Positions 6,741 to 37,410 of a stretch of 42,417 nucleotides of DNA are shown here, in pieces; position 1 is the first letter of the stretch, and the number at the start of each line of letters is the position of its first letter. The notes under the pieces are model-generated. The model did no database searches, was not told the DNA's origin, and saw only the letters and a program-made list of their open reading frames with translations. The DNA comes from Psammoneis japonica (taxonomy: Eukaryota). The DNA lies in contig QPGO01000222.1 in assembly GCA_008632985.1 (NCBI GenBank), forward strand, positions 70,206-112,622, read 5' to 3'. The position numbers and the translations under genes are program-made.

Positions 6741-9079
<2,339 letters not shown>

Positions 9080-12632: not shown

Positions 12633-12810
12633 CTTTTCTTTGTTTGGTTGTGCACAGTCCTTTTTTTGCTCTGCTGCTGCCTTCCCACAATGCCATCATC
12701 AACAAGATGCCCCAGGCTCTGCTTTTCTTTGTTTGGTTGTGCACAGTCCTTTTTTGGCTCTGCTGTTGCCTTCCCACAATGCCGTCATTGACAAGATGCC
12801 CCAGGCATCC
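12633..12810 (+). repeat. Tandem duplication, about 89-bp unit x2
   Basis: CTTTTCTTTGTTTGGTTGTGCACAGTCC...ACAAGATGCCCCAGGC at about 12633 and 12722. Confidence 0.85.
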
Positions 12811-13599
12811 TGTGTTTTGCATTTGTTGTGTTGTGTGGTGGCAATGATGTGTTTTTTAGCATGATGCTGAGCCAGTCAGCCTGATGGTCATTTTTGGTTG
12901 TTTTTGCAATTGCAAATTGTTCAAACCAACTGGAACATGAATGATTTGTTTGGTCTCAACCTCCAGCTGTCAACTTCATTTGAGCGATGTCGCTTCTTTT
13001 TGAGCTGGATGTTGAAATTGTTTGGGTTAGATGCAGTGTGCATGATGTGTTTGCAGAAGATTGATGTTTGATTTTCTGCCAGTGTGATCTTTGTTGGCTC
13101 TTGTCAAGAACAAATTTTCACATTTGTGCTGGTCCGCAGAGAGCTTGTTTGTTTCTGTCTGTGAGAGTGCCTCTGCAGCTGGCTGATCTTTGCAACAACC
13201 AATCTACACCCACACAGCAACCTTTGTTTTGGCTGCATTTTCATCATGGTTCAAACTCACAGGCAGGAGGTCAGAAGAGGCCATGGAGCCAGTTTTGTGC
13301 AGGTGGCATCAGACCTTTGCAAACAAAGGGGATCATGGAGCTGCTCAATTGGTGCCTTGATTGCTCTGCTGTGGCACTCACAGCAGTGCTGCCTTCAAAG
13401 AGCCACTGCACCAGCCTCCAGAGACAGCATTTCCTGTGCCAATGTTCTTCCTCCTTGCTGACATGTGGTTCCCCATGCCAATGCTGCAGTGTGCTGTTGC
13501 TGCAGCTGCACATCATCTTGCAGCTGTCAGCAACAACAGACTTAAGAAAGCAACTCTCAACTTCATGATGACACTGCAAATGATGGCCACTGCCAGTGC

Positions 13600-14480
13600 C
13601 CAACAACAGCAAACTGAGGGCACTGTTGGTGTCTGGTGGTCCCCAGGAAACTCTTTGAGAGCTGTGGTTGAACATTGCAAGGTTGAATTTTGTGGCATTG
13701 TGGCCTCATGTCACCTTCTTTCCAACAGCAGTGAACTTGGATTTCCAAAGTCAAAATTGAAAAGACCCCATGATGGTGCCAGCCAACCCAGCAACAGCAA
13801 GCTGAGAGTGCCGGGAGTCTGTGGTGACCCCCACAGCTGACGCTGTAGAAGCAGCTGCTGAGTGTTGTGAGGTTGATGTTGTGGCTGAATGCAACCTTTT
13901 CCCCAACAGCAGTGGTGCACCATTCTTTGAATTTTCAAACTCTGAGTCCCAAGTGAAAGGACCCTGTGATGCCACCAACCAACCCAACAACAGCAAGCTG
14001 AGGGCACTGAGAGCCCTGGCAGCCCCCCCCAGCAATGCTTTGAGAACCACAGTTGAGAGTTCCAAGGTTGATCCAATGGTGTTGTTTCCCCATGACATGT
14101 TGTCCCCAACAGCAGCAGCTGACTTTTGAACCTCCAAAATCCAGAGTGAAAGGACACCATGGTGCTGCCAACCAACCCAACAACAGCAAGCTGAGGGCAT
14201 TGGTTGTCCTTTCACTGGCACCCTTGGCATTTGGAAAAGTTCCAGCAGTCAGGGCTGTCATTGCGAACAAGGTGCAAGACATGGAGCCACAACACCCCAT
14301 GAGATCAACTTTGCAGTGCCAAACCACAGCTCACAAAGTGTCACCTGGGCCCCACCAGAAACTGAAAATGCCCTTGGTTTTCTGTTGTTGGGTTGGTTGG
14401 CCACATTGTGGGGTCTTTTTATTTTGGAGTTTGGGGGCTCCTCAAGTCTGCTGCTGTTGGGGACAAGGTGACAGGGGGGC
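13600..14480. repeat. Degenerate ~190-bp repeat units, the last one inverted (about 14230-14480)
   Basis: Recurrent TTTGAGAG...TGCAAGGTTGA...GTCACCTTGTCCCCAACAGCAGCAGACTTGA. The reverse complement TCAAGTCTGCTGCTGTTGGGGACAAGGTGAC is at about 14442-14471. Confidence 0.75.
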
Positions 14481-14499
14481 ACAACAACATCATGTCTGC

Positions 14500-17400
14500 A
14501 CTGTCTCCCCCTCCAATGGGCTCTGTTCTGAGGGAACCCAAAACCTGGAGCTGCGCTGCCTCCCTTTGGTGGGTTCCAGCCAGAGGGAACCCAAAAGCTG
14601 GAGCTGTGCTGTCTCCCTTTGATGGGCTCCCATCTGAGGGAACCCAAAACCTGGAGCAGCACTGTCTCCCTTTGATGGGCTCCCTTCTGAGGGAACCCAA
14701 ACCCTGAAGCTGTGCTGTCTCTCATCAACAGGCTCCCATCTGAAGGAACCCAAAACCCGGGAGGGAGAACCCAAAACCTGAAGCTGGGCTGTCTCTTTTT
14801 AATGGGTCCCTGCCAGAGGGAACCCAAAACCTGCAGCTGCAATGTCTCCCTTTGATGGGCTCCCATCTGAAAAACCCAAAACCTGGCAGGGAACCCAAAA
14901 CCTGGAGCTGCGCTGTCTCTTTTTGATGGGTCCCCACCAGAGGAAACCCAAAAAACCTGCAGCTGCATGGTCTCCCTTTGACAGGTTCCCATCTGAGAGA
15001 GCCCAAATCCTGGAAGAGTGCTTTGTTTCCCTTTGATGGGCTCCCATCTCAGGGAACCCAAAACCTGGTGCTGTGCTGTCTCCCTTTGATGGGTTCCTGT
15101 CAGTGGGAGCCCAAAACATGGAGCTGCGCTGTCTCCCTTTCATGGGTTCCCACATGAGGGGAAACCAAAATCTGGGGCTGAGCTGCACAACTTTGATGGG
15201 TTCCCATCTGAGGGAACCCAAACCCTGGAGCTGCGCTGTCTCTTGTTGACAGGCTCCCATCTGAGGGAACCCAAAACCTGGAGGGAACCCAAAACCTGAA
15301 GCAGTGCTGTCTCTTTTTAATGGGTTCCCATCAGAGGGAACTCAAAACCTGGAGCTGTGCTGTCTCCCTTCAATGGGTTCCTCCTGTCTGAGGGAACAGG
15401 GGAAAGAGGGAGCTGTGCTGTCTCCCTTCAATGGGTTCTCCATTCTGAGGGAACCCAAAACCTGAAAGTGCTTTGTCTCCCTTCAATGGGTTTGGTTCTG
15501 AGGGAACCCGATGCCTGGAGATGTGCTGTCTCCCTTTGATGGGCTCCCACCATTTGAGGGAACCCAAAACCTGGTTGTGCCTTGTCTCCCTTCAATGGGT
15601 TCCCATCTCAGGGAACCCAATGCCTGGTGCCACACTGTCTCCCTTTGATGGGTTCCTGTCTGAGGGAGCCCAAAACATGGAGCTGAGCTGTCTCCCTTTC
15701 ATGGGTTTTCATCTGAAGGGAAACCAAAACCTGGGGCTGTGCTGTGCCACTTCAATGGGCTCCCGTCTGAGGGAACCCAAAACCTGGAGCTGTGCTGTCT
15801 CTCTGTTTGATGGGCTCCCATCTGAGGGAACCCAAAACCTGGAGGCAGGGAACCCAAAACCTGAAACTGCGCTGTCTCCTTTTGATGGGTTCCCATCTGA
15901 GGGAAGCCAAAATGTGGGGCTCTGATGATTTTTAACGGGCACCTGTCTGAGGGAATGTCAAGGTGTTCCTGTCTGAGGGAGTGTCAAACATGGAGCTGCA
16001 CTGTCTCCCTTTGCTTTGTTCTGCTCTGATGGAACCCAAAACCTGGAAGTGCTTTGCCTCCCTCGAGCGGGTTCTTTTCTGAAGGAACCTTGAACCTGGA
16101 GCTGCACTGTCTCCCTTTGACAGGTTCCCATCTGAGGGAACCCAAAACCTGGAAGTGCCTTGTCTGCCTTCAATGGGTTTCCATCTGAGGGAACCCAAAA
16201 CCTGCAGCTGTGCTGTCTCCCCACAATGGGCCCCATTCCAAGGGAACCCCAAACCTGGAGCTGTGCTGTCTCCCTTTGACAGGTGCCCACATGAGGGAAC
16301 CCAAAATCTGGAGCAGCACTGTCTCCTTTTGATGGGCTCCCTTCTGAGGGAATCCAAAACCTGGAGCTGTGCTGTCTCCCTTCAATGAGCTCCTGTCTGA
16401 GGGAACCCAAAACCCAGAGCAGTGCAGTCTCCCTTTGATGGGTTCCTGTCTGAGGGAACCCAAAACCTGGAGTGACACTGTCTCCCTTCAGTGGCTTCTG
16501 TTTTGAGGGAACCCAAAACCTGGAAGTGCCGTGTCTCCCTCCAGTGGGTTCTCATCTCAGGGAACCCAAAACCTGGAGCTGCACTGTCTCCCTTTGATGG
16601 GTTCCCATCTGAGGGAACCCAAAACACAGAGCAGTGCTGTCTCTCCTAAATGGGTTCATGTCTGAGGGAGCTGAAAACACAGAGCTGCACTGTCTCCCTT
16701 TGCTGGGCTTGGTTCTGCAGGAAATCAAAACCAGGAGCTGTGCTGCATCCCTTCAATGGGCGCCCTTCTGAGAGTCCAAAACCTGGAGCTGCACTCTCTG
16801 GAACAGCCTTGACTTCCTTTCATGACAGTGCCTGCCCACCTGACAAGAACAGCAAGCTGAGGCCACTGGCAGACTCTGTCAAGTCCCAAGCAACACTTTG
16901 AGAGCACAGCTGGGTGTTGCAATGTTGATCTCACAGTGTTGTGGCACCATGTCACCTTGTCCCCAACAGCAGCAGACTTGAGCTTCCAAACTCTAGAGTG
17001 CAGAGATCCCATGGCAGTGTTGCCTGGACCAAGAACATCTGCCAGCACCAAAGGGCACTGGCGGTGTTTGGTTCACCCAGAGGAGTGAGACTTCAAGAGC
17101 TTTTGTGGGTCATTGCAAGGTTGATCTTGTGGCACTGTGCCCCAGGGCACCCTGTCCCCAACAGCAAAAGACTTGACTTTTCCAAATCCAAAGTGCAACA
17201 AATCCACTGGCGCTGTCTCCCTTCAATGGGTTGTGTCGTGAGGGAACCCCCAAAACCCAGAGCTGTGCTGTCTCACTTTGATGGGTGCCCATCTGATGGA
17301 ACCCAAAACCTGGAGCTGTGCTGTCTCCCTTCAATGGGTTCCCATCTGAGAAAAAAAACCTGGTGCTGTGCTGTCTCCCTTTGACAATGCACATTGTCCC

Positions 17401-18280
17401 CAACAGCAGCAGACTTGACTTTTCCAAATCAAAAGTGCAACGAATCTGTTGGCACTGTCTCCCTTCCATGGGTTCTGTTTTGAGGGAACCCAAAACCTGG
17501 TGGTGCACTGTCTCCTTTGATGGGTTCCCATCTGAGGGAACCCAAAACCTGGAAGTGCCTTGTCTCCCTTCAATGGGTTCCCATCTCAAGGAACCCAAAA
17601 CCTGGAGCTGCACTGTCTCCCCATCACAATGGGCTCCATTCTAAGGGAGCCCAAAACCTGGAGCTGTGCTGTCTCACTTTGATGGGTGCCCATCTGAGAG
17701 AACCCAAAATCTGGAGCAGCACTCTCTCCCTTTGATGGGCTCCCTTCTGAGGGAACCCAAAACCTGGAGAAAACCCAAAACCTGAAGCTGTGCTGTCTCC
17801 TTTTGATGGGTTCCCATCTGAGAAAATCCAAAATCTGGAGCTGTCCTGTCTCCCTTTAATGCTGGGTTCCTGTCTGAGGGAACCCAAAACCTGAAGCTGT
17901 GCTGTCTCCTTTTGATGGGTTCCCATCTGAGAGAATCCAAAACCTGGAGCTGTCCTGTCTCCCTTTTGTGGGTTCTGTTTTGAGGGAACCCAAAACCTGG
18001 AAGTGTCATGTCTCTCCCCAATGGGTTCTTGTCTCAGAGAACCCAAAATCTGGAGCTGTGCTGTCTTCTTTTGATGGGTTCCCAACTGAGAGCACCCAAA
18101 ACATGGAGCGATGCTGTCTCTCCTAAATGGGCTCACATCCAAGGGAGCTGAAAATGTTGAGCTAAACTGCCTCTCTTCAATGGGTCTTGTTCTGTGGGAA
18201 CTCAAAACCAGGAGCTGCATTGCATCCCTTCAATGGGCTCCCTTCTGAGATGGCCCAAAACCTGAAGCTGCGCTGTCTGG
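14500..18280 (+). repeat. 53-bp minisatellite, roughly 60 degenerate units, interrupted by 190-bp units at about 16800-17200
   Basis: Consensus CTGTCTCCCTTTGATGGGTTCCCATCTGAGGGAACCCAAAACCTGGAGCTGTG. GAGGGAACCC recurs at 14530, 14583 and 14636 (period 53). Confidence 0.95.
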
Positions 18281-18289
18281 GGAACAGTC

Positions 18290-19190
18290 TTGACTCCCTT
18301 TCATGACAATGCCAACCCGCCAGACAAGAACAGCAAGCTGAGGCCACTGGCAGACTTTGGCAAGTCCCAAGCAACACTTTGAGAGCATGGCTGGGTGTTG
18401 CAACATTGATCTCATGGTGTTGTGGCCCCATGTCACCTTGGCCCCAACAGCAGCAGACTTGAGCTTCCAAACTCTAGAGTGCAGAGATCCCATGGCAGTG
18501 CCAACTGGCCCAACATCTGCCAGCAATGGGCACTGGTGGTGTGTGGTGCAACCAGAGTGAGACTTTTCAAGAGCTTTTTTGGGGCACTGCAAAGTTGATC
18601 TTGTGGCACTGTGCCCCAGGGCACATTGTCCCTGACAGCAGCAGACTGGACTTTTTCAAATCCAAAGTGCAGTGAATCCACTGTGGTGCCAACCAGTTTG
18701 ACAACTGCCAGCAAAAAACATTGGTGGTGTCTTTGTTGAACCCCAGGTGAGACTTTGAGAGTGGTTGTTGGGCATTGCAAGGTTGACCTTGGTTTGCTGT
18801 GACAGTGTGTCACCTTGGGCCCAACAGGAGCAGACTTGAACTTCCAAGCTCCAAAGTGAAAGGATCCCCCTTGGTGGTGACAACCAACATTGCAGCTGCA
18901 AGTGGAGAACATTGGCGGTCTTTGATGGACCCCAGGTGACAGTTTGAGAACTGTGGCTGAGCATTGTGAGGTTTGTCTTTTGACATTGTGGCCCCATGTG
19001 TCACCCTGTTCCCAACAGCAGCAGACTTGAGTTGGGCTGAGCTTCCAAACTTCAGAGCACATGGATCCCATGGTGGTGCCAACCAACACAACAACTGCCG
19101 CCAGAGGGTGCTGGTGGTGCTTGGTGGACCCAGGGCAAAACTTCAAGAACTTCTGTTGGTCATTGCAAGGTTGATGTCATGGCAAGAATT
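18290..19190 (+). repeat. Degenerate ~190-bp tandem repeat, about 5 units (same family as 13600-14480 and 16800-17200)
   Basis: Anchor motif recurs at about 18378, 18566, 18753, 18943 and 19141. Confidence 0.8.
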
Positions 19191-20287
19191 GAAATGATCC
19201 TGTCTTTCAATCCAGCGGGGCTGGACAAAACCAAGACCACATGAGCCATGTCTGTGCCACAGCTCCTTGACTTTTTGCATCCATTCTCAAGCAGAGTCAG
19301 AGCTGGCATGTTTTGCTGTGGCTGCTGACCAAATCTTGGGTGGAGAACAGGGCATGATGCATTGCTCCTGGTCCTTTTGATGATGACAGCAGAGATCTGG
19401 CTGAGTTGAAAGCAGACTCAGATTCAGACATGGAAGCCAAGCATCAGATTTTTTGCAATCAAGAGACTCTGCTGCATTGGGAGGTGAAAGAGGTGACATG
19501 GAAAGCTGAGGAAGTTCCAGGCAACAAAGCTGATGACTCAACCAAATGAAACAATGTGATGCACATCAAACACCATGTTGGAGTTGAAAGCTGGAAAGCA
19601 CAAGGATCTGTTGAGTGCATTGGTCAAACAAATGGGGTGAAGGCTTTGCAAGACATGGGCGCAAGGCAAACCTAAAAAATGTGGTTGCATGGCTTGAGGA
19701 GTCTGCCCCACACCTCTGGACCACACCTTGCACCAAACAAGGAACAACAACTGAAGGTTTGTGTTCACCAGTGCTGCTTTTCACATTGTCACACTGCACA
19801 GACCTTGCGCCCAGCTGGTTGCACCACACCCTGATTCTGCAAATGTGGATTTTTCACTTGGACTTGCTGTTGGAACATTTGGCACCAATGCTGCCACAGG
19901 GATTGCCAGAAGGTTAAAAACCTTGGCCATGTCACCAGTGTGTGCCCACTGGGAAGGTGCTTTTGTGAGTGGTGGGGAAATCCAAGGCTTGCACTGCTGT
20001 GCTGGATCTGATGTGGGCCTCCCACAACACACCAGCCAGATTGTGTCACAAAATCCTGGGCGGCAAAGCAAGGCTTCTTTCAGACAATGAGTTCAACAAA
20101 AGCGGAGCAAACTTGGAGGATTGCCAGGCAAACTGATTTGTGCAGTGCAGCTGAGAACAGTTCAATCAGCATTGGTGCCCAATTTGAGCAAGAGAGTCAG
20201 CAAGCACACAACAATGTCAAGTCAAAGTTGTTCTTGTTGGCAGGAGGGCGGCATGCTGAGGGGCACAACTGCCACAGATGCACAAGC

Positions 20288-20563
20288 TGACAGAAAATGA
20301 AGGCAAATGGCAAGAATTCAAACAACAACTCCTTGCTGCTGTCTAAATGGCAGATGAGTCTCCGCTCAGAGACCGTTGCAGGAGCCGAAAGACGTGTGGG
20401 TCGGCACAATCGGGCTACTGTTGTCATTCTTGTGAGCCTTGTGGCTCGAAAGCAAACTACATCGCGCGCGAACGCGCGGAACTAAAGCACACAAAACTGT
20501 GCGCGGTAAACTAAACAGCGCGCGATGCTTTGCGCGCATCCAAATCCTGTTCAAATCCTGTCA
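20288..20563 (-). repeat. 3' LTR (276 bp), hypermutated copy
   Basis: Aligns with 27120-27403 with 9 substitutions and one 8-bp indel. Confidence 0.96.
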
Positions 20564-23500
20564 CTCCCCAGTTTGCTTGAGGAGCCACAGAAACAGATTC
20601 GACTTCGGATGGAATGAAGTTCCAGAACATGAGGGGGCGGAGAAGGTCCCAGATTTGGGAGTGACCCCAATGCTTGCTGAGAATGTCAGCAGGGTTGCGG
20701 GAGCCTTCGATGAAGTGGAACTCAAGGCAACCAGAGGCAATTGCCTCACGCACACGGTGGAACGACAGTGCGGTGTGTCGCTTGTGTAACTTGGAGTGCG
20801 GGATGGTGGCACTGTCTACAACCGACTTGTTGTCACCGAACATGTAACTGACATTACGGATCGGGACGCCAAGGTGGCGCAGGGTGATGCGCAGGTCGAC
20901 AATCTGCTCAACACAATTCCTTGCGGCAACAAATTCAGACCCGCAGGTTGCAGTCTCCACGGTGGCTTGTTTCTTGGAGAACCAATCAGCCGGGAATTTG
21001 TTGAGGAAGTGGAGCATTCCCATGACAGAGCGTCCGGTGAGCATGCAATGGTGCAAGTTTGCATCGACGCAGTGGGTGGCAGTGACGAACTTGCCAAGGG
21101 GCGGTGGAGCGTCCTTCGGGATCATCTCTTCTGCTTCACCACACACGGAATGCATCCATTCACAGGCCGGAGCAGGGAGATCCGAATGGTCGGGCTCTTC
21201 CGTGCGAACGCGGAGAGCACCGTGTCGCATCTTGGAGAGGTGCCCACAGACGCGTTTGGCACGATCCAAGTGGCCTTGACGGGGCGCAGCTCGGAAGCTA
21301 GAGAGTGACATGACGGCCGTGGTAATGTCAATTCGACCAAGGGACACTGCCCATTGGAGTGAACCAACAAGAGACTGGAACTTGTGAATGCCATCGGGTC
21401 CCAGCAGTTCGGAAGTGTCCAGTTCGGGGTGGTCACCCTTCTCTAGAGGTGACAGGGCGTTGGTGGCAGGTTTCTCCCCAAACAGTCGGGCGCAGCTGTC
21501 GACCATGCGCTCGATGTACTTGCGCGGAGACAGGCACAAGGTTCCGTCGGGGTCCCGGGAAAAGTCGCAACCCAGATGGAACTCAATGGGTCCCGTGCCC
21601 TTGAGCTTGAACTTGTGCTTTTCCGTGAGAGTGTCGACGAAAGGTTGAGGGTCCTTCATGGCAATGGCGAGGTCATCCACATAAACGGCAATGTATTCAC
21701 AGTGGTCGCCGTTCCTGCGCATCCAAATGTCGGGTTCGGCGCGGCAGGGGAAGAAGCCTTCAGCTCGCAGGCAGTCGGCGAAGCGTTCGTGCCAGCGGAG
21801 ACCGGAGCTGCGCAGTCCATACAGTGCCTTGTGGATGACAAGGATGTGTCCTTCGAGTTTGCCAAATTCGGGTCCAGCTACAATGTAAAGCTTCTCCTTG
21901 GTGGTGGCCTCAAGGTGGGCATTGCCAATGTCGGTGGCCCATGTCTCCAGCTCGTTGAGTTCGGCCAGGAAAATCATCAGCCGAAGGCCACGAAGGGAGA
22001 CCACTCCGGAGCAGACACTGTCGACAGGTACGTCCGTGAGGTGCCCGTCGGCTACGAGTCGTGCCTTGTGGCGACCGTCGTGTTTCACGTGGTACACCAG
22101 GTGCACTCGGATCTTCTTGTGTCCCGCAGGAGGAGTGGAAGACTTGAAGGGCCCGCAGTCATGGAAGACTTCGTATTCGTCGAGTTGGTCCATCTCGAGA
22201 TTAGTTGCGTCTCCCCACTTGCGGTTGCCGTTGCGTTCGTCTAGTGACATGGCGTGTTTGTAGTTCCGGGGAACTTCGTATCCGCACTTGCAGCGAGGTG
22301 CAGTGCGGAAGGAACGAAGCTTGGCTTGGTTGGCCATGCGAAATAGTTTCTTTTGGCGCCTCGCGACAGTGCGGAACCGCTTCCAGCCATCCGTGTCGAG
22401 GAGTCCGTTCTCTCGTGCATAGATGGCACAGGTGACGGGGTCGTCCTTGGCGATGATGGCAAGAGGCTCGGACGTGATCTCCCCACTTTCCCATTCAAGC
22501 ATGATGTTGTAGCTTGAGCCTTTCCAGGTTGGGTCGTGAGGCTTCAGAGGTCCTTCGTGTGACACGATGCGTCGAAATTTCCAAACAGTGGTGTCTTCGT
22601 CTTCTTGCTCAATGTGATTCATGATGTCATTGTAGGCAAGGACTTCCTCGCATTCGTCATTGTTGACAGAGCAGACGAACTTAGTGAGCTCGGGATTGCC
22701 GTTCACTTTCCATTCGTGGTCTTCGACGGCCTTGACGATGCGAGCTCTGTGGCGTTGACCGTCCTCTTGTGGCTGCATGAGGAAGGTACGTCCAATGATG
22801 TCTTGCGGATCGAAAACTGGCATCTTGGGTGTCCTGATCTCCCCATCAGGAGAATCGACGGGGTTGTCGTCATGGCGAGATTTGATGATGGGTTCAGGTG
22901 GCTCCCCATCAGGAGGATCAAGACGCAGGTTTCGAACAGCAGGATCGGGGGCAGCGGAGCGAACGTTGGACCGGCAGAGGATCTTTTGAGTCTCGTCAGA
23001 TAGGATCTTGAAGGTCATCTGGTGGCCGACGTGCTCAGCAATGCCAACGAAGCGTCCGCGCAACTCACGGGATTCGGACGGCCAATCGGAGTCATCGAGG
23101 TGGAAGTACACTGGTTCCCACCAGTGAAAGCGAAGCAATGGGCTGATGTCCGGGGTGGATCCAGTGAGAGTCTCGAGGGGCGTGCGCCAGTGGAGACGTG
23201 GGGACGCTGTGTGGTTGAGTGTGAAGCACACGCACATGAGCGCCAGCAGCCATGTGTGGGCGGGCGAACCAAAACGGTCCATGACAGTGTTCGCCATGCG
23301 CTTCACGGTCTGGCAGCGACGCTCGGCAAAGTTTTGGTGTTGCTGGTGAGGCTCACTTTGCCAGCTGGAGATGAAGAGGGCGCGCAGGATCCCGAGCACT
23401 TTGTTGCTGATCTCAACTTGAGCACGGTCGCTAATGAGTTTGGATGGGGCACCACGTTCACGGATCTGATCCTCGAGTGTGTTGACAAACTCTTTGTCCG

Positions 23501-26180
23501 TCTCAGTGCCGTAGATGTCAGTGACGGTAGACTCGGTGCCAACAAACAGTTGGGCGCTGGTGCAACCAGAGTCGACGGCCGGGGTGTCGGCACGAACGGT
23601 GTCAGTGGCGACAGGCTCGTTGCGGCGGTGCACATTAAGGGCGGGGTTGGGTGATTTGCAGGCCTTGCGAAGGTGTGCACCGGCGGGCATGCGGGCGCAC
23701 TGCGTGGTGCAGTCAAAAGTACGACGGACCGTATCGGCAGGTGGGAAGCCAAAGCAAGGCCGAAGAGACTCGAAGGGGGGGTCCTTGGGCTGTACAGTGC
23801 GCTCCGGAGGTGGAACGTCATCGCCCTTGGGGTCAATCGCATGCATGTGACACTCGTAGAACACGTCGTCGTTCGGAATGAGGTGATCATCGAGGGCGGA
23901 CGCGTGATCGGCAGACAAGGAAGCGGACAAGATGGTCTCGTTGACAACGACACGGTGGCGGCAGTTGCCGCATTTGTCAAACAGGTTGGCAGTGGGATCG
24001 TCCTGTCGGTCAGAGATCGCGTCGCACCACTGGTCGTCGTCAGTGACAGAGTGATCGAGGACGGAAGGGTCCCATGTGTCATCACCGGTGAGGATGACAT
24101 GGGGCAGGGTGTCCCATTCGGCGTCAGTGTAAGGTCGCATGGCAACATGAGGCAGGCCAGCCTTGATGTCAATGGGGATGACACAGCCATCAGGAGTGGC
24201 AACACGTTGCAAGCCGTTGGGCACCTTGACAGAGCGATCGTTGACATCCTGTTTGCACCATTCGAGCTGGCCGCAGGAATGGATGGTCTTGCCCTTTCCC
24301 GTGCAAGCGCACTGATGGAGGATGGCGATGACGGGACCACGCTGGGTCTCAATGACGGCACCAGCGGTGACAATGGGGATGTCCACCAATTGATGATCGT
24401 CAATGCCCTGAACGTCGACTTGGCGAGAGGTGCGTGCGATGACGCGGACGTCGTCGCCAGCAATGCCGCCGTTGGCCCCACGATCGACTAGAGCGCCAGT
24501 GCGTGTGGAGCGATGAGCAGAGGCAGAGTAAATGACATTGTGGTTGTCAACGCGGCGGCAAGTGCGGCCGTTAAGTTCGATGTCATCTGCAGAAGCTGGC
24601 GGGGTAGAGGAAGCGGCGGATGGCCCCGGTCGACTGGCATTGGGGGCTTGGTTAGGAGACAACAGACGTTGCAGATCACCGGGTGGCAGTGGCTTGCGCT
24701 TGGTGAGGTGCGCCAGGACAGGATTGTCCGAAATGGCATCCACATGTGCAGCGGAGTCACCACAGTCAGCAGGAGTCGTGTTGGACAAGTTGACATCACC
24801 GTCACTCCCAAGGTGTTGGTCGTGAAGGTTGGCCGTAACAGACTCATGGCAGTCACTGGCTCGCGGAGTGCGGGGAGGCGGACGAGAGTGCTCAAGGATG
24901 ATCGCCTTGGAGGAATCGGGCAACGAATCCCAGAGCCGTTGGTGGTCGGGAGGGAGACATCTCCATTGGACACCGGCGAGGCTGGGACCACGGGTGTCGG
25001 CAGCATTGGCTTGAAGGACGTCAACGTCACTGTCAATGTCGTAGAACACATCGTCGGACGGTTCCTCGGAGCAGACGTCGTGTGCGCATGTGGCGCGTCG
25101 GGGAGCTCGAGGTGTCGTCTTGGGTTGAAACGTGCTGTCGCACTGAGCTGCCGCGGAGAGGAGCAAGCCACAGCATTGATCATGTGTGAGGCTCTTGCCA
25201 CTCTGCGTGCGATGCTGATCAGCTTGGTTCTTGACAGCACGGAGTTCCTCGACAGGGTGCACGGCATTCTCGAGCATGACGCGCTTCTGTCCTTCAGAGA
25301 AGTGGTCGCTGGCGGGGATGAGTGCCTCGCACTTGCGCAACTGATCTTGCCAATGAAGGATGAACCCGTGGGTCGGACCTTTCCAAGTGCCATCACCAAG
25401 ATGTGCGGTGGTGAGGCACGTGAGCAGGGTGGAGGACTCGACAGATGCACGGGTGGAGGCAAGCGCGCATTCAGACAAGGAGCGGCAGACGGTCTGTGCG
25501 TCAGAGGACCCCACATTTTCGCGAATGAGAGCCTTGCCCTTGTCGGTGAGAAGGATGCGTTCGAAGACGGCGAACATGTGCTTTTGCTGTTCAGCAAAGA
25601 GCAGTTTGTCTTCGGGGCTGGTCGGTTTGTACGACGAGTCTAGAATGCACTCGACGTCTTGGGCACGGGCTTGTGCCACAAGTGAGGTGTGCCAAGTGTG
25701 CCACTGCTTGTCGGATTTGAGAGCCGTGAAAGCGGTGGGATCACGCTTGATGCCTCGCTTGAAGTCTCGCACCGGGTCGCGTGCCTTGGTCGGGTTGGTG
25801 ACATGTGGAGGTGCAAGGGGTGAGCTGCCGATGGACAGAGAGGACATGTGGTCCGGGCTGAGGCGGCAGGCAAGGAACTCGTCATGCGTGAACAAAGAGG
25901 AGTCGTTGGCAACGTCAAGACCTTTGTGTGCTTTGACAATGTACAGGCTGGCCAGTGCTGCTAACATGTTCTTATAACCACGGGGCAAAGGGATTGCATT
26001 GGTGCCGTTGTCGCACTCAAGCGAGTCGATTTGGGACGGTGTGAACGTGAACAGTTCCTGATGCGAGTCCGTGCCGTCTTGGGCCAAAGCCAAACGAAGA
26101 GGACTCCCAGCACCTTGGGCAAGCACGGTTCCAACAACGTGCTCGAAACCATCGGTTTGTTGCTGACGAGTGAGAACCAT
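20511..26180 (-). CDS. Copia gag-pol polyprotein; open frame but probably inactivated by Tyr>Cys/His changes
   Basis: Protease LVDRGAN; integrase VATD..ISD..AER; RT HKARLVA, KALYGL and YVDD; RNase H VDAN, SEFVAA, GDN and ADILSK. Integrase precedes RT, the Copia order. Confidence 0.95.
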   Translation of the reverse strand: MVLTRQQQTDGFEHVVGTVLAQGAGSPLRLALAQDGTDSHQELFTFTPSQIDSLECDNGTNAIPLPRGYKNMLAALASLYIVKAHKGLDVANDSSLFTHDEFLACRLSPDHMSSLSIGSSPLAPPHVTNPTKARDPVRDFKRGIKRDPTAFTALKSDKQWHTWHTSLVAQARAQDVECILDSSYKPTSPEDKLLFAEQQKHMFAVFERILLTDKGKALIRENVGSSDAQTVCRSLSECALASTRASVESSTLLTCLTTAHLGDGTWKGPTHGFILHWQDQLRKCEALIPASDHFSEGQKRVMLENAVHPVEELRAVKNQADQHRTQSGKSLTHDQCCGLLLSAAAQCDSTFQPKTTPRAPRRATCAHDVCSEEPSDDVFYDIDSDVDVLQANAADTRGPSLAGVQWRCLPPDHQRLWDSLPDSSKAIILEHSRPPPRTPRASDCHESVTANLHDQHLGSDGDVNLSNTTPADCGDSAAHVDAISDNPVLAHLTKRKPLPPGDLQRLLSPNQAPNASRPGPSAASSTPPASADDIELNGRTCRRVDNHNVIYSASAHRSTRTGALVDRGANGGIAGDDVRVIARTSRQVDVQGIDDHQLVDIPIVTAGAVIETQRGPVIAILHQCACTGKGKTIHSCGQLEWCKQDVNDRSVKVPNGLQRVATPDGCVIPIDIKAGLPHVAMRPYTDAEWDTLPHVILTGDDTWDPSVLDHSVTDDDQWCDAISDRQDDPTANLFDKCGNCRHRVVVNETILSASLSADHASALDDHLIPNDDVFYECHMHAIDPKGDDVPPPERTVQPKDPPFESLRPCFGFPPADTVRRTFDCTTQCARMPAGAHLRKACKSPNPALNVHRRNEPVATDTVRADTPAVDSGCTSAQLFVGTESTVTDIYGTETDKEFVNTLEDQIRERGAPSKLISDRAQVEISNKVLGILRALFISSWQSEPHQQHQNFAERRCQTVKRMANTVMDRFGSPAHTWLLALMCVCFTLNHTASPRLHWRTPLETLTGSTPDISPLLRFHWWEPVYFHLDDSDWPSESRELRGRFVGIAEHVGHQMTFKILSDETQKILCRSNVRSAAPDPAVRNLRLDPPDGEPPEPIIKSRHDDNPVDSPDGEIRTPKMPVFDPQDIIGRTFLMQPQEDGQRHRARIVKAVEDHEWKVNGNPELTKFVCSVNNDECEEVLAYNDIMNHIEQEDEDTTVWKFRRIVSHEGPLKPHDPTWKGSSYNIMLEWESGEITSEPLAIIAKDDPVTCAIYARENGLLDTDGWKRFRTVARRQKKLFRMANQAKLRSFRTAPRCKCGYEVPRNYKHAMSLDERNGNRKWGDATNLEMDQLDEYEVFHDCGPFKSSTPPAGHKKIRVHLVYHVKHDGRHKARLVADGHLTDVPVDSVCSGVVSLRGLRLMIFLAELNELETWATDIGNAHLEATTKEKLYIVAGPEFGKLEGHILVIHKALYGLRSSGLRWHERFADCLRAEGFFPCRAEPDIWMRRNGDHCEYIAVYVDDLAIAMKDPQPFVDTLTEKHKFKLKGTGPIEFHLGCDFSRDPDGTLCLSPRKYIERMVDSCARLFGEKPATNALSPLEKGDHPELDTSELLGPDGIHKFQSLVGSLQWAVSLGRIDITTAVMSLSSFRAAPRQGHLDRAKRVCGHLSKMRHGALRVRTEEPDHSDLPAPACEWMHSVCGEAEEMIPKDAPPPLGKFVTATHCVDANLHHCMLTGRSVMGMLHFLNKFPADWFSKKQATVETATCGSEFVAARNCVEQIVDLRITLRHLGVPIRNVSYMFGDNKSVVDSATIPHSKLHKRHTALSFHRVREAIASGCLEFHFIEGSRNPADILSKHWGHSQIWDLLRPLMFWNFIPSEVESVSVAPQANWGVTGFEQDLDARKASRAV

Positions 26181-27104
26181 GGCAGACAAAAGTGGTGTCA
26201 GGACAATCAATTCTGGTCGGGAAGCGAAGGCAGACTCGAAACTTGGGTGAGAATGGACTTGACTTGAAACAGACTTGACTTGAAATCTTGAACCATCTTA
26301 AAATCAGAAGTCGCCGGGCTTTGTCATCCCGTTCGTTGTCAAGTGCTAAACTTCCCATCCGGGCCGTAGAGTTGTGCCGGCACGTCCGAACCCGCAGCCA
26401 GCGGCGCTTTGGGTTGCTTGCGAGCGGAGCAGCGGGTTGTAAACCCCTGCAGGCAAGCTGACTGGAGGTGGACAAGACCCCCGAACCGTTCTTATTTTAT
26501 GTCGGTTGGATTTCCCGATCAGGCTGGCCAGTTGACGCAGGCGTCAGGCGCTGTGGACGAACGAACAAACGCGGGAAAGCACCCTCGCCCCAACGCAGGC
26601 TGTAATCACGGCTGCTTGCTCTCACAGTCGTCCTCGTGGACCTAGTGGAACTGTAGAGCACCAGTAGTCCGGGGTAGATCAGGTACAATGGACTCGGTGT
26701 GCTTGTAGAGTGGCAGCAAAACCGCAGTCCGAAGAGTGGGTACAGGTTCTTGGCCGTGAAGATATGTATATATATATATGTCTTCAGCGACGAAGATCCT
26801 TGAATATGTAGGGTTCTTGACCGTTAACCGATGAATAGGTATATCAAGGGATGAGGATCAAGGATAGACTTGGATATGACCGTTGAATGTATGTCTTCAG
26901 CGATCAAAGGTAGTATAATCAATCCAGATATCCAGCGGTAAGGAGACTTGACGGTGACGTTAACTTCCTGCCGATGCCCTGGTATTGAATGCGCGTAGAC
27001 TTGCCGATGTATGTAGAATATATACGGAGGTCCACGTAGAATTGAAATAGCGTCGTTGGTAAATCAACGACGACGATGGCGGTTGCTCAATGGGTTGACA
27101 ATGA

Positions 27105-27119
27105 GCAAGACTGTTAATC
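27105..27119 (-). promoter_or_regulatory. Putative primer-binding site complementary to the anticodon arm of tRNA-Asn(GUU)
   Basis: Immediately inside the 5' LTR the sense strand reads GATTAACAGTCTTGC. Its complement GCAAGACTGTTAATC contains the tRNA-Asn anticodon loop CTGTTAA. Confidence 0.6.
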
Positions 27120-27403
27120 TGACAGAAAATGAAGGCAAATGGCAAGAATTCAAACAATAACTCCTTACTGCTGTCTAAATAGCAGATGAGTCTCCGCTCA
27201 GAGACCGTTACAGGAGCCGAAAGACGTGTGGGTCGGTATAATCGGGCTAGGGCCCTACTGTTATTATTCTTGTGAGCCTTGTGGCTCGAAAGCAAACTAC
27301 ATCGCGCGCGAACGCGCGGAACTAAAGCACACAAAACTGTGCGCGGTAAACTAAACAGCGCGCGATACTTTGCGCGCATCCAAATCCTGTTCAAATCCTG
27401 TCA
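27120..27403 (-). repeat. 5' LTR (284 bp), TpA-retaining copy
   Basis: Direct repeat of 20288-20563; carries an extra 8 bp forming TAGGGCCCTA at 27248-27257. Confidence 0.96.
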
Positions 27404-28273
27404 CAAGCAATGAGCCCTTCTTGCATTGTCACTCTGGGCACTTGCGCTGCCCCAAGATTGATGGCATCTTGCTCACCCCAAATGTGCAGCAGCCACCAGA
27501 GCAGAGGAGCCAAGAAAAGGTGTGATGATGCCAAGCATCACATGAACCAATTTCAGAAAAAGAACTTGTGATTGCTCTGGGTGGCCATCAGCTGGAAACC
27601 TCAACTCAGATGGCACTGAAAACAATTGCAAAGAAGTGGCAGTGGTGTTTCTGACAACACAGCATGTCTGCAAAGTGGTGGATTTGCTCGCCAACATGAA
27701 CAGAGCACAAGTTGTTGCAAACATGATGCTTGAGTGCAGTTGTTTTGTTGTGTGCTCTTTTCCACATCCCCAGCTTGATGGCTCACCTTGATGACTTCTC
27801 ATGTCCACACCAGCACTTTGCCATCTTCCTTCTTTTGACATCATGGCATCTCATCTTTGGTTTGTGCCACACTGATCAGCTTTTCATCATCATCCAGAGC
27901 TGCTTCATGTGAGGTTGTCATTGCTGTCAAAGTTTTCTGACAAGTTTGCCTTGGTCCAGCTGCATTTCCAGGCTCTGGCACAATGCACTCTCCAAGAATT
28001 GCACAGGTTGGAAAGCTGCCAGGTTTGCGCACTCGCTGTTTCAATGATTTCTGCATCAAAAATGTGCAATCAACAGGTCACTGAGTGTCGCATGTGGCCA
28101 ACAGCTTCCCCAACAATGCCAAGCACACAATGTTGTTAGAGACACAAAAAAGGCAGTTGTGTTGGACAGCAGGTGACATTGGTGCAAAAAGACATTTGGT
28201 GCAAACAAGCAAGCAACTCTCATGGACTTCAGGAAGAACAACAACCAATTTGCAAGTCAATGTTTGCCATTTC

Positions 28274-28308
<35 letters not shown>

Positions 28309-29300
28309 GACATGTGGCCAGGGTGCTGGTGCCTTTTTGCACAGTGGATTGACAGAACATGCAGCTGAGATTGCAAAATTCCCCTGCATGTCTCTGGGCA
28401 TGGCTTGGTCAATGAGAAACAATGCCAAAAGGTGGCAGGAGTGGTGCCATGGAAGGTGTTGCAAACAGAAAATGCTTTTTTGCACTTGTCTTCACATGCG
28501 CATGTTTTCTCTTTTTCTGGAACTCCAGCACCGGGCAGACAAATTCTCACCAAGATGAAAACTCACAAGATGAGGTGTTGCACATTTGAAGCCATTGCAA
28601 CACCATCATCCAAGATGTGCATTTTCATCCCAGGTGAGAAACTTTTGGACAAATCACGAGGTTTTTTGCGCGCTTCTGTGCAGCACACACACATGCCCAG
28701 AGAACAAAATGCCAGCTGCGCAGGTGGCCAGCACAGTTGAGTTGTCCATGAATCAATGAAAGAAGAACAAGCACAGCCAACATTTGCAAAAATTGTGAAT
28801 CAGCAGAAACTGCCTTCACAAATGTGAAAATTGCAGCCATTGTTCATTGTTCTTCTTGCCAAGTGCAGAAACATGTTGCAGACACAGCCAACACCATGCT
28901 GTCAACAAGGCTCGCAAAGTTGCAGAGTGTGCATTTGCACTGCACCTCTCCAGCTTTTGCCAAATGAGCCCAGAGGCAGGCCAGTGCACCTTTGCCACTT
29001 TGGCCAAGAAATCTCGCTCACGTGCTCGCCCTCTTGCAAAAACCTCTGGCAGCAGGCAGTGTCTTTTGATGTGCGGCGCTGAGGCAAACATTTGTCAATG
29101 CAGGTGCAGGGGTGCTGGGTGGCACCCAGAGAGATGTTTTTGGTCTGGACCCATGCTGGCCAGTCGAAGAACCAAACAGAGAACACAACGGCTCCAAATG
29201 ATGCACACCCACAACTTCTTCTGTGACTCTCCAACAATTCTTTCCTCCCTTGCCTTCCATCTCTTCTCTGGCTTTTGTGACCTTTCGCCACTGATGGATC
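27404..29300. other. TpA-depleted, CpG-poor hypermutated domain (right arm); unidentifiable relic
   Basis: Only one TpA seen (TTAG, about 28137) in about 1.9 kb. Confidence 0.9.
28274..28309 (+). repeat. (TTG)12 microsatellite
   Basis: Read directly from the sequence. Confidence 0.97.
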
Positions 29301-29413
29301 AAGTTACCTCGACATGCACCACCGCGTAACAAACAAAAGAAAAGAACCCACAAAAAATGCCTCTGTCTCTCAAACAAAGCATGGCAAAAGAAAATAGAAC
29401 GTCCAAGCGTGTG

Positions 29414-30760: not shown

Positions 30761-31167
30761 ATCACGATCAACCACTCTGTGAGATCATCTCAAGGTAGCA
30801 TGGGAGGTAAGGTGTGATACAAAAATGTATGTTCTGTATGTTTTTTCCTTTTTGATCATGTCTCTTTCTCTCGTTCTGCCTGCCTACAGCACATAGGTAC
30901 TGCATGGTTTCTACCAGGTAAATCATTAGTTTACACAACTACAGTAAACCATGGTGTGCCCGGTCGATTGCACACGCTACTATATTCTTGGTATCTCATA
31001 CATCGGTATACAAAACAGCAAATGTGAAAGTGTCCGCCGAACACTACACAATTGCCATACCAATCCGTTTCTCTCTTGCTCATCTTTGCGAGAAGCTGTA
31101 CTCCTTATATACTCACAGTCGTGAAGCCTACCCAAAGGCCTCGTCCGGTCGACGTCATCATCTACCT

Positions 31168-37242: not shown

Positions 37243-37410
37243 CATGTACGGTATCCATGCACATGATCGGCATACTTTCTTATAGGCTTGAGTGCCTTTT
37301 CAAGTGGAAGTCTTTACTGTAAGTAACCCAAACCCCATCAAATGGATAGGGCAATCTGGAGCAGAGAGCGCTTTAGAGAAACCAACTGAGAGTGATCAAA
37401 CAGAACGTGT

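What the first reader, a model, noticed from the sequence alone, without database searches (positions are those of the whole stretch)
20511..26180. Gag-pol damaged without stop codons: systematic Tyr>Cys and Tyr>His
Seen: the 1.9-kaa frame is open, but positions I recall as Tyr in Copia/CoDi proteins read Cys or His: HQCACTGKG, DGCVIP, TTQCAR, RCKCGYEVP, GHKKIRVH, DSVCSGVV, DIGNAHLEA, THCVDANLHH, ETATCGSE, LRHLGVP, WGHSQ. TAY>TGY and TAY>CAY are the two strand outcomes of A>G at TpA, which polarises the change as loss of TA. CpG stays abundant in the element, so TpA loss is faster than CpG decay and separate from it. Inference: this process almost never creates stops, so inactivated elements would be misannotated as intact.
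Basis: partly seen in the sequence, partly recalled or inferred. Interest (0 to 1): 0.88.

Follow-up and report, generated by a model that had tools for sequence, protein, structure and literature searches.

The report
TpA-hypermutated Copia retrotransposon in a diatom
A complete jumping gene in a diatom genome has had most of its TA steps rewritten to TG or CA, turning tyrosines into cysteines and histidines without ever creating a stop codon, the footprint of a TA-specific mutation process so far reported in print only for an unrelated alga.

Summary
Observation confirmed. The frame belongs to a complete Ty1/Copia-type LTR retrotransposon (window 20288-27403, minus strand; 284/276-bp LTRs, 5-bp target duplication GCTTG). 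At 40 columns where 85 relatives keep Tyr (>=80%), it keeps 13; 16 are Cys and 6 His (other residues: 53 of 703 changed). All 11 motifs quoted have Tyr in the relatives. TpA o/e is 0.20 in the CDS and CpG 0.94.

The two LTRs differ by 9 substitutions, all at TA (9 of 15 TA steps, 0 of 246 other positions), so the process also acted on the integrated DNA. TA>TG/CA cannot create an in-frame stop.

The same signature was measured directly in Bigelowiella natans (bioRxiv 10.64898/2026.01.13.699255). This window is from a diatom, and I found no diatom report.

Caveats: repeat-only contigs of the same sample are about 98% identical to this copy, so most of the Tyr loss is probably family-wide and inherited. 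"Inactivated" is therefore not shown. The 5' LTR and leader are untouched, unexplained. The element sits in an 11.5-kb block lacking both TA and CG. The enzyme is unknown.

The parts
20288..27403 (-). Complete Ty1/Copia-type LTR retrotransposon (7116 bp)
   Evidence: LTR pair with TGACAG...CTGTCA ends and identical 5-bp flanks. RVT_2 domain at E = 4.8e-28. Weak integrase-core match N-terminal to the RT.
27120..27403 (-). 5' LTR (284 bp), TA intact (16 TA, o/e 0.87); carries a private 8-bp insertion
   Evidence: The repeat-consensus contigs of X2 and X4 lack the 8 bp at 27247 (table 4).
20288..20563 (-). 3' LTR (276 bp), 6 TA left (o/e 0.37); 9 TA steps of the 5' LTR read TG (4) or CA (5) here
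   Evidence: 9 substitutions, all at positions inside TA. That is 9 of 30 TA positions and 0 of 246 other positions (Fisher p = 6e-10).
27404..27408 (-). Target-site duplication GCTTG (upstream copy, element sense)
20283..20287 (-). Target-site duplication GCTTG (downstream copy)
20564..20571 (-). Polypurine tract (CTGGGGAG) directly before the 3' LTR
   Evidence: Flank printed. The function is inferred from the general anatomy of LTR elements.
20511..26180 (-). Gag-pol CDS, 1889 codons from the ATG; TpA o/e 0.20, CpG o/e 0.94; 34 of 60 Tyr-consensus columns read Cys or His
26181..27119 (-). Leader between the 5' LTR and the ATG. TA is not depleted, and a (TA)n run at 26764-26778 is intact. 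TA density falls from about 26600 and is low from about 26300.
   Evidence: the 500-nt bins have TA o/e 0.96 and 0.94, then 0.25 and 0.04-0.42..
10651..20287 (.). Left part of the host block into which the element inserted: 21 TA (o/e 0.04), 63 CG (o/e 0.10), TG o/e 1.82, CA o/e 1.51. It contains a diverged tandem array (about 53-bp unit) at about 14.5-18.3 kb.
   Evidence: None of the 22 ORFs of this part that were scanned (2, 20) matched a Pfam family at E <= 0.01.
27404..29304 (.). Right part of the same TA- and CG-poor block: 1 TA (o/e 0.01), 20 CG (o/e 0.19)
   Evidence: An X1 contig matches 27377-28000 with 0 differences.

Best explanation
The frame is the gag-pol gene of a complete Copia-type LTR retrotransposon in a diatom genome. 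A transition process that acts only at the dinucleotide TpA has rewritten it, turning TA into TG or CA on either strand.

Tyr codons (TAY) are the only sense codons that start with TA. They therefore become Cys (TGY) or His (CAY). TAA/TAG-type stops are never made, so the frame stays open.

The process works on chromosomal DNA. After this copy integrated, it changed 9 of 15 TA steps in one LTR and nothing else. It also shapes the whole family in this genome: copies differ from each other mainly at TA steps, sometimes with TG in one copy and CA in another at the same site. Most of the TA loss in this copy's coding part was probably inherited from an already mutated progenitor that was still mobile.

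This is the same mutational signature that was measured directly in mutation-accumulation lines of the chlorarachniophyte Bigelowiella natans, where it hits integrated viral DNA at about 1000 times the background rate.

The likely mechanism is inferred, not shown. An enzyme or base modification is targeted to silenced repeat or foreign DNA and converts A (or T) within duplex TpA. Adenine deamination by an ADAT/TadA-like deaminase is the hypothesis proposed for B. natans. CpG decays later and more slowly, so DNA exposed for a long time ends up almost free of both TA and CG, like the 11.5-kb block around the element.
For: Shown:
- Tyr loss is specific. 27 of 40 conserved Tyr columns changed, 22 of them to Cys or His, against 53 of 703 other conserved columns.
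- Of 90 single-nucleotide-explainable differences at conserved columns (128 columns differ in all), 35 are TA>TG/CA. 5 are CG>TG/CA and only 6 are A>G or T>C outside TA.
- The LTR pair differs at 9 of 15 TA steps and 0 of 246 other positions, giving 4 TG and 5 CA outcomes interleaved within a few bases. The identical 5-bp target duplication argues against inter-element recombination.
- Of the 32 best-supported variable sites between this copy and other copies in reads-derived contigs, 15 lie on the TA axis. In 6 the window has TA and others TG/CA, in 3 the reverse, and in 6 the contrast is TG versus CA. Another 6 lie on the CG axis.
- Negative control: an 86%-identical duplicate elsewhere in the window (31.1 kb against 38.4 kb) has an ordinary spectrum, with 10 of 73 differences TA-type.
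- 79 of 80 environmental relatives lack the signature. One (L074) has it independently: 7 Cys + 4 His at 23 Tyr columns, TpA o/e 0.31.
- Host genes in the window have TpA o/e of about 0.57-0.85.
- No sense-codon pair gains a stop through TA>TG/CA.

Precedent: bioRxiv 10.64898/2026.01.13.699255. I read the abstract, Results and Discussion. It reports 231 of 302 new mutations in two viral inserts, all but one of them A>G or T>C and all of those at TpA. TpA-poor CDS were enriched in reverse-transcriptase and DDE domains.
Against: - No mutation was observed happening; everything here is a footprint.
- In-situ action at this locus rests on the 3' LTR alone, and its polarity (TA ancestral) is inferred from the coding part and from the B. 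natans data. No outgroup LTR was available.
- Contigs of three small runs of the same sample, which cover only the element and so probably represent the repeat consensus, are about 98% identical to this CDS (57/2686, 57/2984 and 85/3766 differences, table 8). Most Tyr>Cys/His changes are therefore probably not private to this copy and cannot be dated to after its insertion.
- The runs come from one sample, which may be the assembly's own source. They are not independent support for the base calls.
- The 5' LTR and the 940-nt leader are untouched although both flanks of the element are TA-free. A simple model of spreading from the flank does not explain this.
- The expected TA count (285, from 51 relatives; 52 observed) uses relatives with lower G+C (48.9% against 57.5%), so the roughly 80% loss is approximate. 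The protein-level estimate is 73% (44 of 60 Tyr columns).
- The enzyme, its targeting and the base attacked are unknown.
Confidence: 0.8

Rival explanations
1. Passive decay of a symmetric base modification. Silent chromatin in this diatom carries a modified A or T at TpA (for example 6mA or 5-hydroxymethyluracil) that miscodes at a raised rate, in the way 5-methylcytosine decays at CpG. The TA loss would then be a by-product of silencing rather than a dedicated editing defence.
For: TA and CG are both self-complementary steps that can be maintained symmetrically. In the old block both are almost gone, and the two depleted domains nearly coincide: TA-free from 10651 and CG-poor from about 10960; on the right, TA returns at 29305 and CG at about 28900-29286.
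Against: The element has lost about three quarters of its TA with CpG unchanged (o/e 0.94). The rates therefore differ greatly, and the LTR ratio (9 of 15 against 0 of 246) points to a very fast process. In B. natans the process was on in only 11 of 15 lines, which its authors read as regulated. My one library search for 6mA or 5-hydroxymethyluracil in diatoms listed no paper on either modification in diatom DNA among the 12 of 79 papers shown.
Confidence: 0.15
2. RNA-level A-to-I hyper-editing of the retrotransposon transcript at UA sites (ADAR- or ADAT-like), fixed by reverse transcription and inherited by daughter copies.
For: UA is the preferred context of known A-to-I editors; this is general knowledge and is also cited in the B. 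natans Discussion. The Tyr-poor state looks family-wide and inherited. At Tyr codons the sense-strand A>G outcome (Cys, 24) outnumbers T>C (His, 10); binomial p = 0.024.
Against: Editing of the genomic RNA gives only sense-strand A>G, yet 10 of 34 Tyr changes and 5 of 9 LTR changes are sense-strand T>C. Both LTRs of a new copy are made from the same template, so an LTR pair that differs at 9 TA steps needs a change after integration. The non-coding tandem-repeat block around the element is also TA-free.
Confidence: 0.07
3. Selection rather than mutation bias. The family has purged TA because TA is disfavoured, for instance by codon usage, by TA/UA-cleaving nucleases, or to escape the TA-directed process itself.
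For: TA survives better in Tyr codons (phase 1: 23 observed against 70 expected) than in phase 2 (13 against 78) or phase 3 (16 against 137). This is the pattern expected if protein function was partly defended. The mutated lineage was still mobile.
Against: Five Tyr columns that are invariant in all 85 relatives (375, 1429, 1461, 1719, 1785) are Cys or His. The 9 LTR differences arose within one insertion. Non-coding flanks are depleted as well. At most this is an overlay on a mutational process.
Confidence: 0.05
4. Sequencing or assembly artefact, that is, systematic miscalls at modified bases.
For: Transitions at short palindromic motifs are a known error type of some long-read base-callers at methylated sites (general knowledge). 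The library type of the runs is not on record.
Against: Reads-derived contigs reproduce the TA/CG-free flanks: 0 substituted letters and 1 gap over 19000-20313, and 0 differences over 27377-28000, at depth 67-139. Different copies show TG against CA at the same site, which a systematic miscall would not produce. An unrelated metagenome contig (L074) shows the same signature. The B. natans mutations were called from Illumina data.
Confidence: 0.02

Closest known systems
TpA-specific hypermutation of integrated viral DNA in Bigelowiella natans (Mettrop et al., bioRxiv 10.64898/2026.01.13.699255; abstract, Results and Discussion read)
   Same: Only TpA>TpG/CpA transitions, with both outcomes. It is local, with sharp limits, and far above background. 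The targets are foreign or repeat DNA, and reverse-transcriptase domains are enriched among TpA-poor CDS.
   Different: - The host is a diatom (Stramenopila), not a chlorarachniophyte (Rhizaria).
- The target is a high-copy LTR retrotransposon with an LTR-pair clock, not a single-copy giant-virus or virophage insert.
- Here it is only a footprint, not a measured rate.
- The old block here has also lost CpG; the preprint does not mention CpG, LTR, copia or tyrosine (0 occurrences each).
- The mutated lineage here seems to have kept transposing.
Repeat-induced point mutation (RIP) of fungi
   Same: A DNA-level, context-specific transition process that degrades repeats after integration and leaves a dinucleotide footprint.
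   Different: RIP is C>T, mainly at CpA. It creates TpA and many stop codons and lowers G+C. Here TpA is destroyed, G+C rises, and no stop can arise. Dependence on homology was not tested here.
APOBEC3 editing of LTR retrotransposons and ERVs in vertebrates (PMC4866542; search listing only)
   Same: A deaminase footprint fossilised in LTR elements.
   Different: APOBEC editing is C>U on minus-strand cDNA. It gives strand-coordinated G>A changes, makes stops (TGG>TAG/TGA), and acts before integration. None of these fits here.
CpG decay through 5-methylcytosine deamination
   Same: Loss of a self-complementary dinucleotide to TG/CA in silenced DNA. It is seen here in the 11.5-kb block (CpG o/e 0.10-0.19).
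   Different: It is a different dinucleotide and much slower here. The element keeps CpG at o/e 0.94 while TpA is at 0.20.
CoDi (Copia-like elements of diatoms; Maumus et al. 2009, PMC2806351; passages found by term search only)
   Same: A Copia-type LTR element in a diatom, with TG/CA LTR ends and a 5-bp target duplication.
   Different: Placement in a CoDi group was not tested. That paper has 0 occurrences of 'hypermut', 'dinucleotide', 'RIP' or 'tyrosine'.

Membership tests
TpA>TpG/CpA hypermutation (as defined in B. natans, bioRxiv 10.64898/2026.01.13.699255) | Changes are A/T>G/C transitions confined to TpA | tested here: met
   LTR pair: 9 of 9 substitutions lie at TA and 0 of 246 other positions changed. 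At conserved codons there are 35 TA-type changes against 6 A>G/T>C changes outside TA.
TpA>TpG/CpA hypermutation (as defined in B. natans, bioRxiv 10.64898/2026.01.13.699255) | Both outcomes occur (TpG and CpA, i.e. both strands) | tested here: met
   24 Cys (TG) and 10 His (CA) at Tyr columns. 4 TG and 5 CA in the LTR, interleaved. TG in one copy against CA in others at 6 of the 32 listed sites.
TpA>TpG/CpA hypermutation (as defined in B. natans, bioRxiv 10.64898/2026.01.13.699255) | Local, sharply bounded, sparing ordinary host genes | tested here: met
   Borders lie at 10651, about 26300-26600 and 29305. Host genes have TpA o/e of about 0.57-0.85. The duplicate pair used as a control has an ordinary spectrum.
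TpA>TpG/CpA hypermutation (as defined in B. natans, bioRxiv 10.64898/2026.01.13.699255) | De novo rate about 1000 times background, measured in mutation-accumulation lines | not testable with these tools
   Only a ratio from one LTR pair is available: 9 of 15 TA steps against 0 of 246 other positions.
TpA>TpG/CpA hypermutation (as defined in B. natans, bioRxiv 10.64898/2026.01.13.699255) | Target is DNA of foreign or mobile origin | tested here: met
   The target is a Copia-type retrotransposon. The origin of the surrounding TA/CG-free block is unknown.
Ty1/Copia LTR retrotransposon | Two LTRs with TG...CA ends, a 5-bp target-site duplication, and a polypurine tract before the 3' LTR | tested here: met
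Ty1/Copia LTR retrotransposon | RVT_2-type reverse transcriptase with the integrase N-terminal to it | tested here: met
   RVT_2 at residues 1389-1601, E = 4.8e-28. The integrase core gives only a weak profile match at profile positions 921-1019, E = 0.004.
CoDi clades of diatom Copia elements | Placement of the RT domain within CoDi1-7 on a tree | not tested
   No CoDi reference sequences were at hand. The host is a diatom by its Prp43 homologues, 82-88% identical.
Fungal RIP | C>T at CpA, creating TpA and stop codons | tested here: not met
   The direction is opposite: TpA is destroyed (o/e 0.20), Tyr is ancestral, and no in-frame stop is present.
APOBEC-type cDNA editing | Strand-coordinated C>T/G>A acquired before integration, with identical LTRs | tested here: not met
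   The changes are A/T>G/C, fall on both strands, and the LTRs differ.
ADAR-type RNA hyper-editing fixed by reverse transcription | Only sense-strand A>G, with the LTR pair identical at insertion | tested here: not met
   10 of 34 Tyr changes and 5 of 9 LTR changes are sense-strand T>C, and the LTR pair differs at 9 TA steps.

The most novel reading that the evidence does not exclude
TpA-directed DNA hypermutation is not a peculiarity of one chlorarachniophyte. It is a genome-defence or silencing chemistry shared by distant SAR lineages, diatoms included, and in diatoms it acts on LTR retrotransposons. Because it can never make a stop codon, it produces recoded (Tyr>Cys/His) but open polyproteins. 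Such lineages can go on transposing, either with their own proteins or in trans, while purging their TA steps, which amounts to an arms race. Long exposure, together with CpG decay, yields kilobase blocks of DNA with almost no TA or CG. 'Intact ORF' counts of transposons in such genomes would then overestimate the number of functional copies.
Probability: 0.4. Interest if true: 0.85.

Novelty: new member of a known kind. Interest (0 to 1): 0.74.

Why it matters
- It would be the second eukaryotic lineage, in a different supergroup branch, with a TpA-specific hypermutation footprint. It would also be the first case on an LTR retrotransposon, where the LTR pair provides an internal clock. The process would then be widespread enough to search for its enzyme by comparative genomics.
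- Diatoms are transformable, so a knock-out test becomes practical.
- There is a direct lesson for annotation. Where this process acts, an open 1.9-kaa gag-pol frame is no evidence of an intact protein, because the mutation class cannot create stops. Tyr/Cys/His composition or TpA o/e is the better test.
- It also suggests an origin for DNA tracts that lack both TA and CG.

Tried and rejected
- Whole-genome search: no genome is held for this window. Copies could therefore not be fetched, and a family tree and other LTR pairs could not be made.
- RNA evidence: no RNA holder was listed.
- Pfam on ORFs of the TA/CG-free blocks and the first 4 kb: of 33 ORFs, 32 gave nothing and one gave a chance-level hit, E = 0.0095, below the cut-off. 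Two further block ORFs gave nothing. PHROGs on the 994-aa ORF gave nothing.
- Earlier findings of this scan: nothing for this genome, for the sequence or for the word sets. The partial word matches are phage cases that do not bear on this.
- First Prp43 search: I used the 'longer' length class, which missed the right size range and gave no taxon. It was repeated with 'near'.
- Strand bias: Tyr codons give 24 TG against 10 CA, the LTR gives 4 against 5, and whole-CDS TG/CA counts depend on the baseline. Left unresolved.
- Flank context: survival of TA is lower with A/T neighbours (3' T 0.07 and 3' A 0.13, against 3' C 0.27 and 3' G 0.26). The baseline comes from relatives of different G+C, so this is only a hint. 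The idea from the LTR that TAG is protected did not hold in the CDS.
- Run order of Cys/His outcomes along the protein: about 16 runs against about 15 expected, counted by hand. There is no strand-coordinated clustering.
- cDNA-stage editing gradient of the APOBEC type: rejected, because the leader is untouched, the drop is abrupt, the 3' LTR is hit and both strands are affected.
- Literature: I found no diatom report of TA-specific hypermutation in searches, nor in the term search of PMC2806351. Supplementary tables of the bioRxiv preprint are closed and were not seen; they may list extended sequence context.

Full report
WHAT IS THERE

The minus strand of window 20511..26297 is open for 1928 codons stop to stop.

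The frame lies inside a complete LTR retrotransposon, window 20288..27403:
- The LTRs are 284 bp (27403..27120) and 276 bp (20563..20288).
- The LTR ends are TGACAG...CTGTCA.
- The 5-bp flank GCTTG is the same on both sides.
- A purine run, CTGGGGAG, sits directly before the 3' LTR.

Pfam finds RVT_2 at residues 1389-1601 (E = 4.8e-28). A profile of the family weakly matches retroviral integrase cores at profile positions 921-1019 (E = 0.004). The integrase is thus N-terminal to the RT, which is the Copia order.

The host is a diatom. The Prp43/DHX15 gene at 6741..9079 has its best named homologues in Fragilaria, Ditylum, Attheya, Nitzschia, Pseudo-nitzschia and other diatoms at 82-85% identity. 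The best unnamed hits reach 88%, and there is no 100% hit.

Composition. The frame has Tyr 1.14%, Cys 2.85% and His 4.67%. The 120 best relatives have Tyr 3.13-4.95%, Cys 0.47-1.54% and His 2.71-4.49%.

Conserved Tyr columns. I aligned the query with the 85 of those 120 relatives that are 1800-2000 aa long.
- Of 40 columns with Tyr in >=80% of relatives, the query keeps 13. Sixteen are Cys, 6 His and 5 other.
- No relative has Cys at any of the 16 Cys sites.
- Other conserved residues changed at 53 of 703 columns (Fisher p = 4e-19).
- At the >=50% threshold there are 60 Tyr columns: 16 Tyr, 24 Cys, 10 His, 10 other.

All 11 quoted motifs have Tyr in the relatives at the flagged residue.

An independent control used 80 metagenome loci that encode relatives.
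- 79 have 0-2 Cys and 0-2 His at 37 conserved Tyr columns.
- The window element has 15 Cys + 6 His of 36.
- One locus, L074, has 7 Cys + 4 His of 23 and TpA o/e 0.31. It is not among the 12 best blastn matches of the element printed, so I take it as a separate case.

IT IS A TA-SPECIFIC NUCLEOTIDE PROCESS

- The CDS has 52 TA (o/e 0.20) and CpG o/e 0.94.
- The relatives' loci have a median TpA o/e of 0.72 (range 0.31-1.02).
- Scaling from 51 relatives with long ORFs gives about 285 expected TA. That baseline has lower G+C (48.9% against 57.5%), so the figure is approximate. The protein-level loss is 44 of 60 Tyr columns.
- At conserved columns where the query differs (128 columns, of which 90 can be explained by one nucleotide), 35 changes are TA>TG/CA. 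Nine of these are non-Tyr changes of the expected kinds: Ile>Val or Met, Asn>Asp, Thr>Ala and Lys>Glu after a T. Five changes are CG>TG/CA, and only 6 are A>G or T>C outside TA.
- An enumeration of all pairs of sense codons shows that TA>TG or TA>CA never creates an in-frame stop. This explains the open frame, and also why other frames of the region are open for up to 394 codons.

DNA-LEVEL ACTION AFTER INTEGRATION

The two LTRs differ by 9 substitutions and one 8-bp indel. All 9 substitutions are at TA steps of the 5' LTR, which read TG (4) or CA (5) in the 3' LTR. That is 9 of 15 TA steps and 0 of 246 other positions (Fisher p = 6e-10). Neighbouring TA steps two bases apart took opposite outcomes.

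The matching target duplication argues against a recombinant between two elements.

A duplicate pair elsewhere in the window (31.1 against 38.4 kb, 86% identity) has an ordinary spectrum, with 10 of 73 differences TA-type. The LTR pattern is therefore not the genome's background. Its polarity (TA ancestral) is inferred from the coding part and from the published case.

FAMILY-WIDE PICTURE

Four runs of one sample hold the stretch. Laid on 19000-28000, contigs of X1 match the flanks: 0 substituted letters and 1 gap over 19000-20313, and 0 differences over 27377-28000. The depth of these contigs is 67-139. The summed depth over the element is 50,000-236,000, with 14,030 pieces laid, so this is a very abundant family.

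Differences to other copies are mostly transitions. In X1 the counts of places are A>G 73, T>C 79, C>T 53 and G>A 57, against 36 transversions. Only the 40 best-supported rows were printed, and 266 were not shown. The 40 rows form 32 sites:
- 15 lie on the TA axis. In 6 the window has TA and others TG/CA, in 3 the reverse, and 6 contrast TG with CA.
- 6 lie on the CG axis.
- 11 are other.

TG in one copy against CA in another at one site means independent hits on an ancestral TA.

The three tiny runs X2-X4 have no depth on the flanks, so they probably assemble only repeats. Their listed contigs are about 98% identical to this CDS (57/2686, 57/2984 and 85/3766 differences). An unmutated consensus would differ by about 4% at TA sites alone. 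Most of this copy's TA loss, including most Tyr>Cys/His changes, is therefore probably shared by the bulk of the family and predates this insertion.

The insertion itself is young: no non-TA LTR difference and an intact target duplication. It follows that the mutated lineage was still mobile, by its own proteins or in trans. Five Tyr columns that are invariant in 85 relatives are lost (375, 1429, 1461, 1719, 1785), while six are kept, including one in the YVDD stretch. TA survives better in Tyr codons (0.33) than in the other codon phases (0.17 and 0.12). This is a hint of past selection, with the baseline caveat above. Whether the protein works is open.

SURROUNDINGS

The element sits in an 11.5-kb block (10651-20287 and 27404-29304) that has 22 TA in all (o/e 0.04 and 0.01) and CpG o/e of 0.10 and 0.19, with TG/CA at 1.5-1.9.
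- Part of the block is a diverged tandem array with a unit of about 53 bp.
- It has no recognisable domains.
- The TA-free domain starts about 300 bp before the CpG-poor domain on the left. On the right, TA returns at 29305 and CpG at about 28900-29286.

Inside the element the 5' LTR and leader (26181-27403) keep 63 TA (o/e 0.83), including an intact (TA)n run. TA density drops between about 26600 and 26300. This spared kilobase between TA-free DNA is unexplained. The options are tract-wise targeting, selection on cis-acting sequences in a lineage mobilised in trans, or template switching between co-packaged RNAs.

Host genes in the window have TpA o/e of about 0.57-0.85.

COMPARISON WITH WHAT IS KNOWN

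A 2026 preprint (bioRxiv 10.64898/2026.01.13.699255) describes mutation-accumulation lines of Bigelowiella natans. I read the abstract, Results and Discussion and did not see the supplements.
- 231 of 302 new nuclear mutations fell in two integrated viral regions.
- All but one of these were A>G or T>C, and all of those were at TpA.
- The rate was about 1000 times background, and the process was active in only some lines.
- TpA-poor CDS were enriched in reverse-transcriptase and DDE domains.
- The authors propose an ADAT2-like DNA adenine deaminase.

The preprint does not mention CpG, LTR, copia, retrotransposon or tyrosine.

The signature here is the same. The host lineage, the target class, the LTR-based evidence, the co-depleted old block and the apparent continued mobility are new. 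I found no diatom report in the library. The CoDi paper PMC2806351 has no occurrence of 'hypermut', 'dinucleotide', 'RIP' or 'tyrosine'.

RIP, APOBEC editing and ADAR-type RNA editing each fail a defining feature; see the membership table.

MECHANISM

Shown:
- The changes are TA-specific transitions on both strands.
- They act on integrated DNA.
- They are fast relative to other changes.
- They are regional.
- They cannot make stops.

Inferred:
- An enzyme or a modification is aimed at silenced repeat DNA.
- The base attacked (A or T) cannot be told, because TA is self-complementary.
- CpG loss is probably the slower, ordinary decay of methylated CpG. A common chemistry is not excluded.

VERDICT

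'Inactivated' is unproven. The phenomenon is a new member, in a diatom and on a retrotransposon, of a kind described only very recently.

Noticed in passing
window 10651-20287 and 27404-29304: An 11.5-kb block almost free of both TA (22 in all) and CG (83 in all), rich in TG/CA, with no recognisable coding domains. The Copia element inserted into it. The TA-free border (10651) lies about 300 bp outside the CG-poor border (about 10960) and abuts the 5' end of a 2OG-oxygenase gene.
   Followed up: partly
window about 14500-18300 (also 13600-19200): A diverged tandem array with a unit of about 53 bp, and longer repeats of about 190-240 bp, 68-78% identical to each other, inside the TA/CG-free block.
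   Followed up: partly
window 1-1200: A second tract with low TA (11 TA, o/e 0.15) but normal CpG (o/e 0.83), the same state as the Copia CDS. None of the four ORFs there matched Pfam. Its origin is unknown and it runs off the window.
   Followed up: partly
L074 (metagenome contig, 2759 bases): A partial relative of the element from an environmental assembly with the same signature: TpA o/e 0.31, and 7 Cys + 4 His at 23 conserved Tyr columns. It is not among the 12 best DNA matches of the window copy, so it is probably an independent case in another diatom population.
   Followed up: partly
window 31145-31860 and 38479-39216: A dispersed duplicate, 86% identical, with an ordinary substitution spectrum (10 of 73 differences TA-type). 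I used it as a negative control. One copy overlaps the 3' end of a 994-codon ORF (31168-34152, minus strand) that has no Pfam or PHROGs match.
   Followed up: partly
window 3999-5462 (+) and 9264-about 10600 (-): Two 2OG-Fe(II) oxygenase genes of the DIOX_N type flank the Prp43 helicase gene (6741-9079). By Pfam they are of the plant-type oxygenase family, not TET/JBP. I see no link to the TA process.
   Followed up: no
window 27240-27250 (5' LTR): An 8-bp insertion private to the 5' LTR. The 3' LTR lacks it, and so do the X2 and X4 contigs over that place (table 4).
   Followed up: partly
window 36895-37245: A 98%-identical tandem duplication offset by 147 bp.
   Followed up: no
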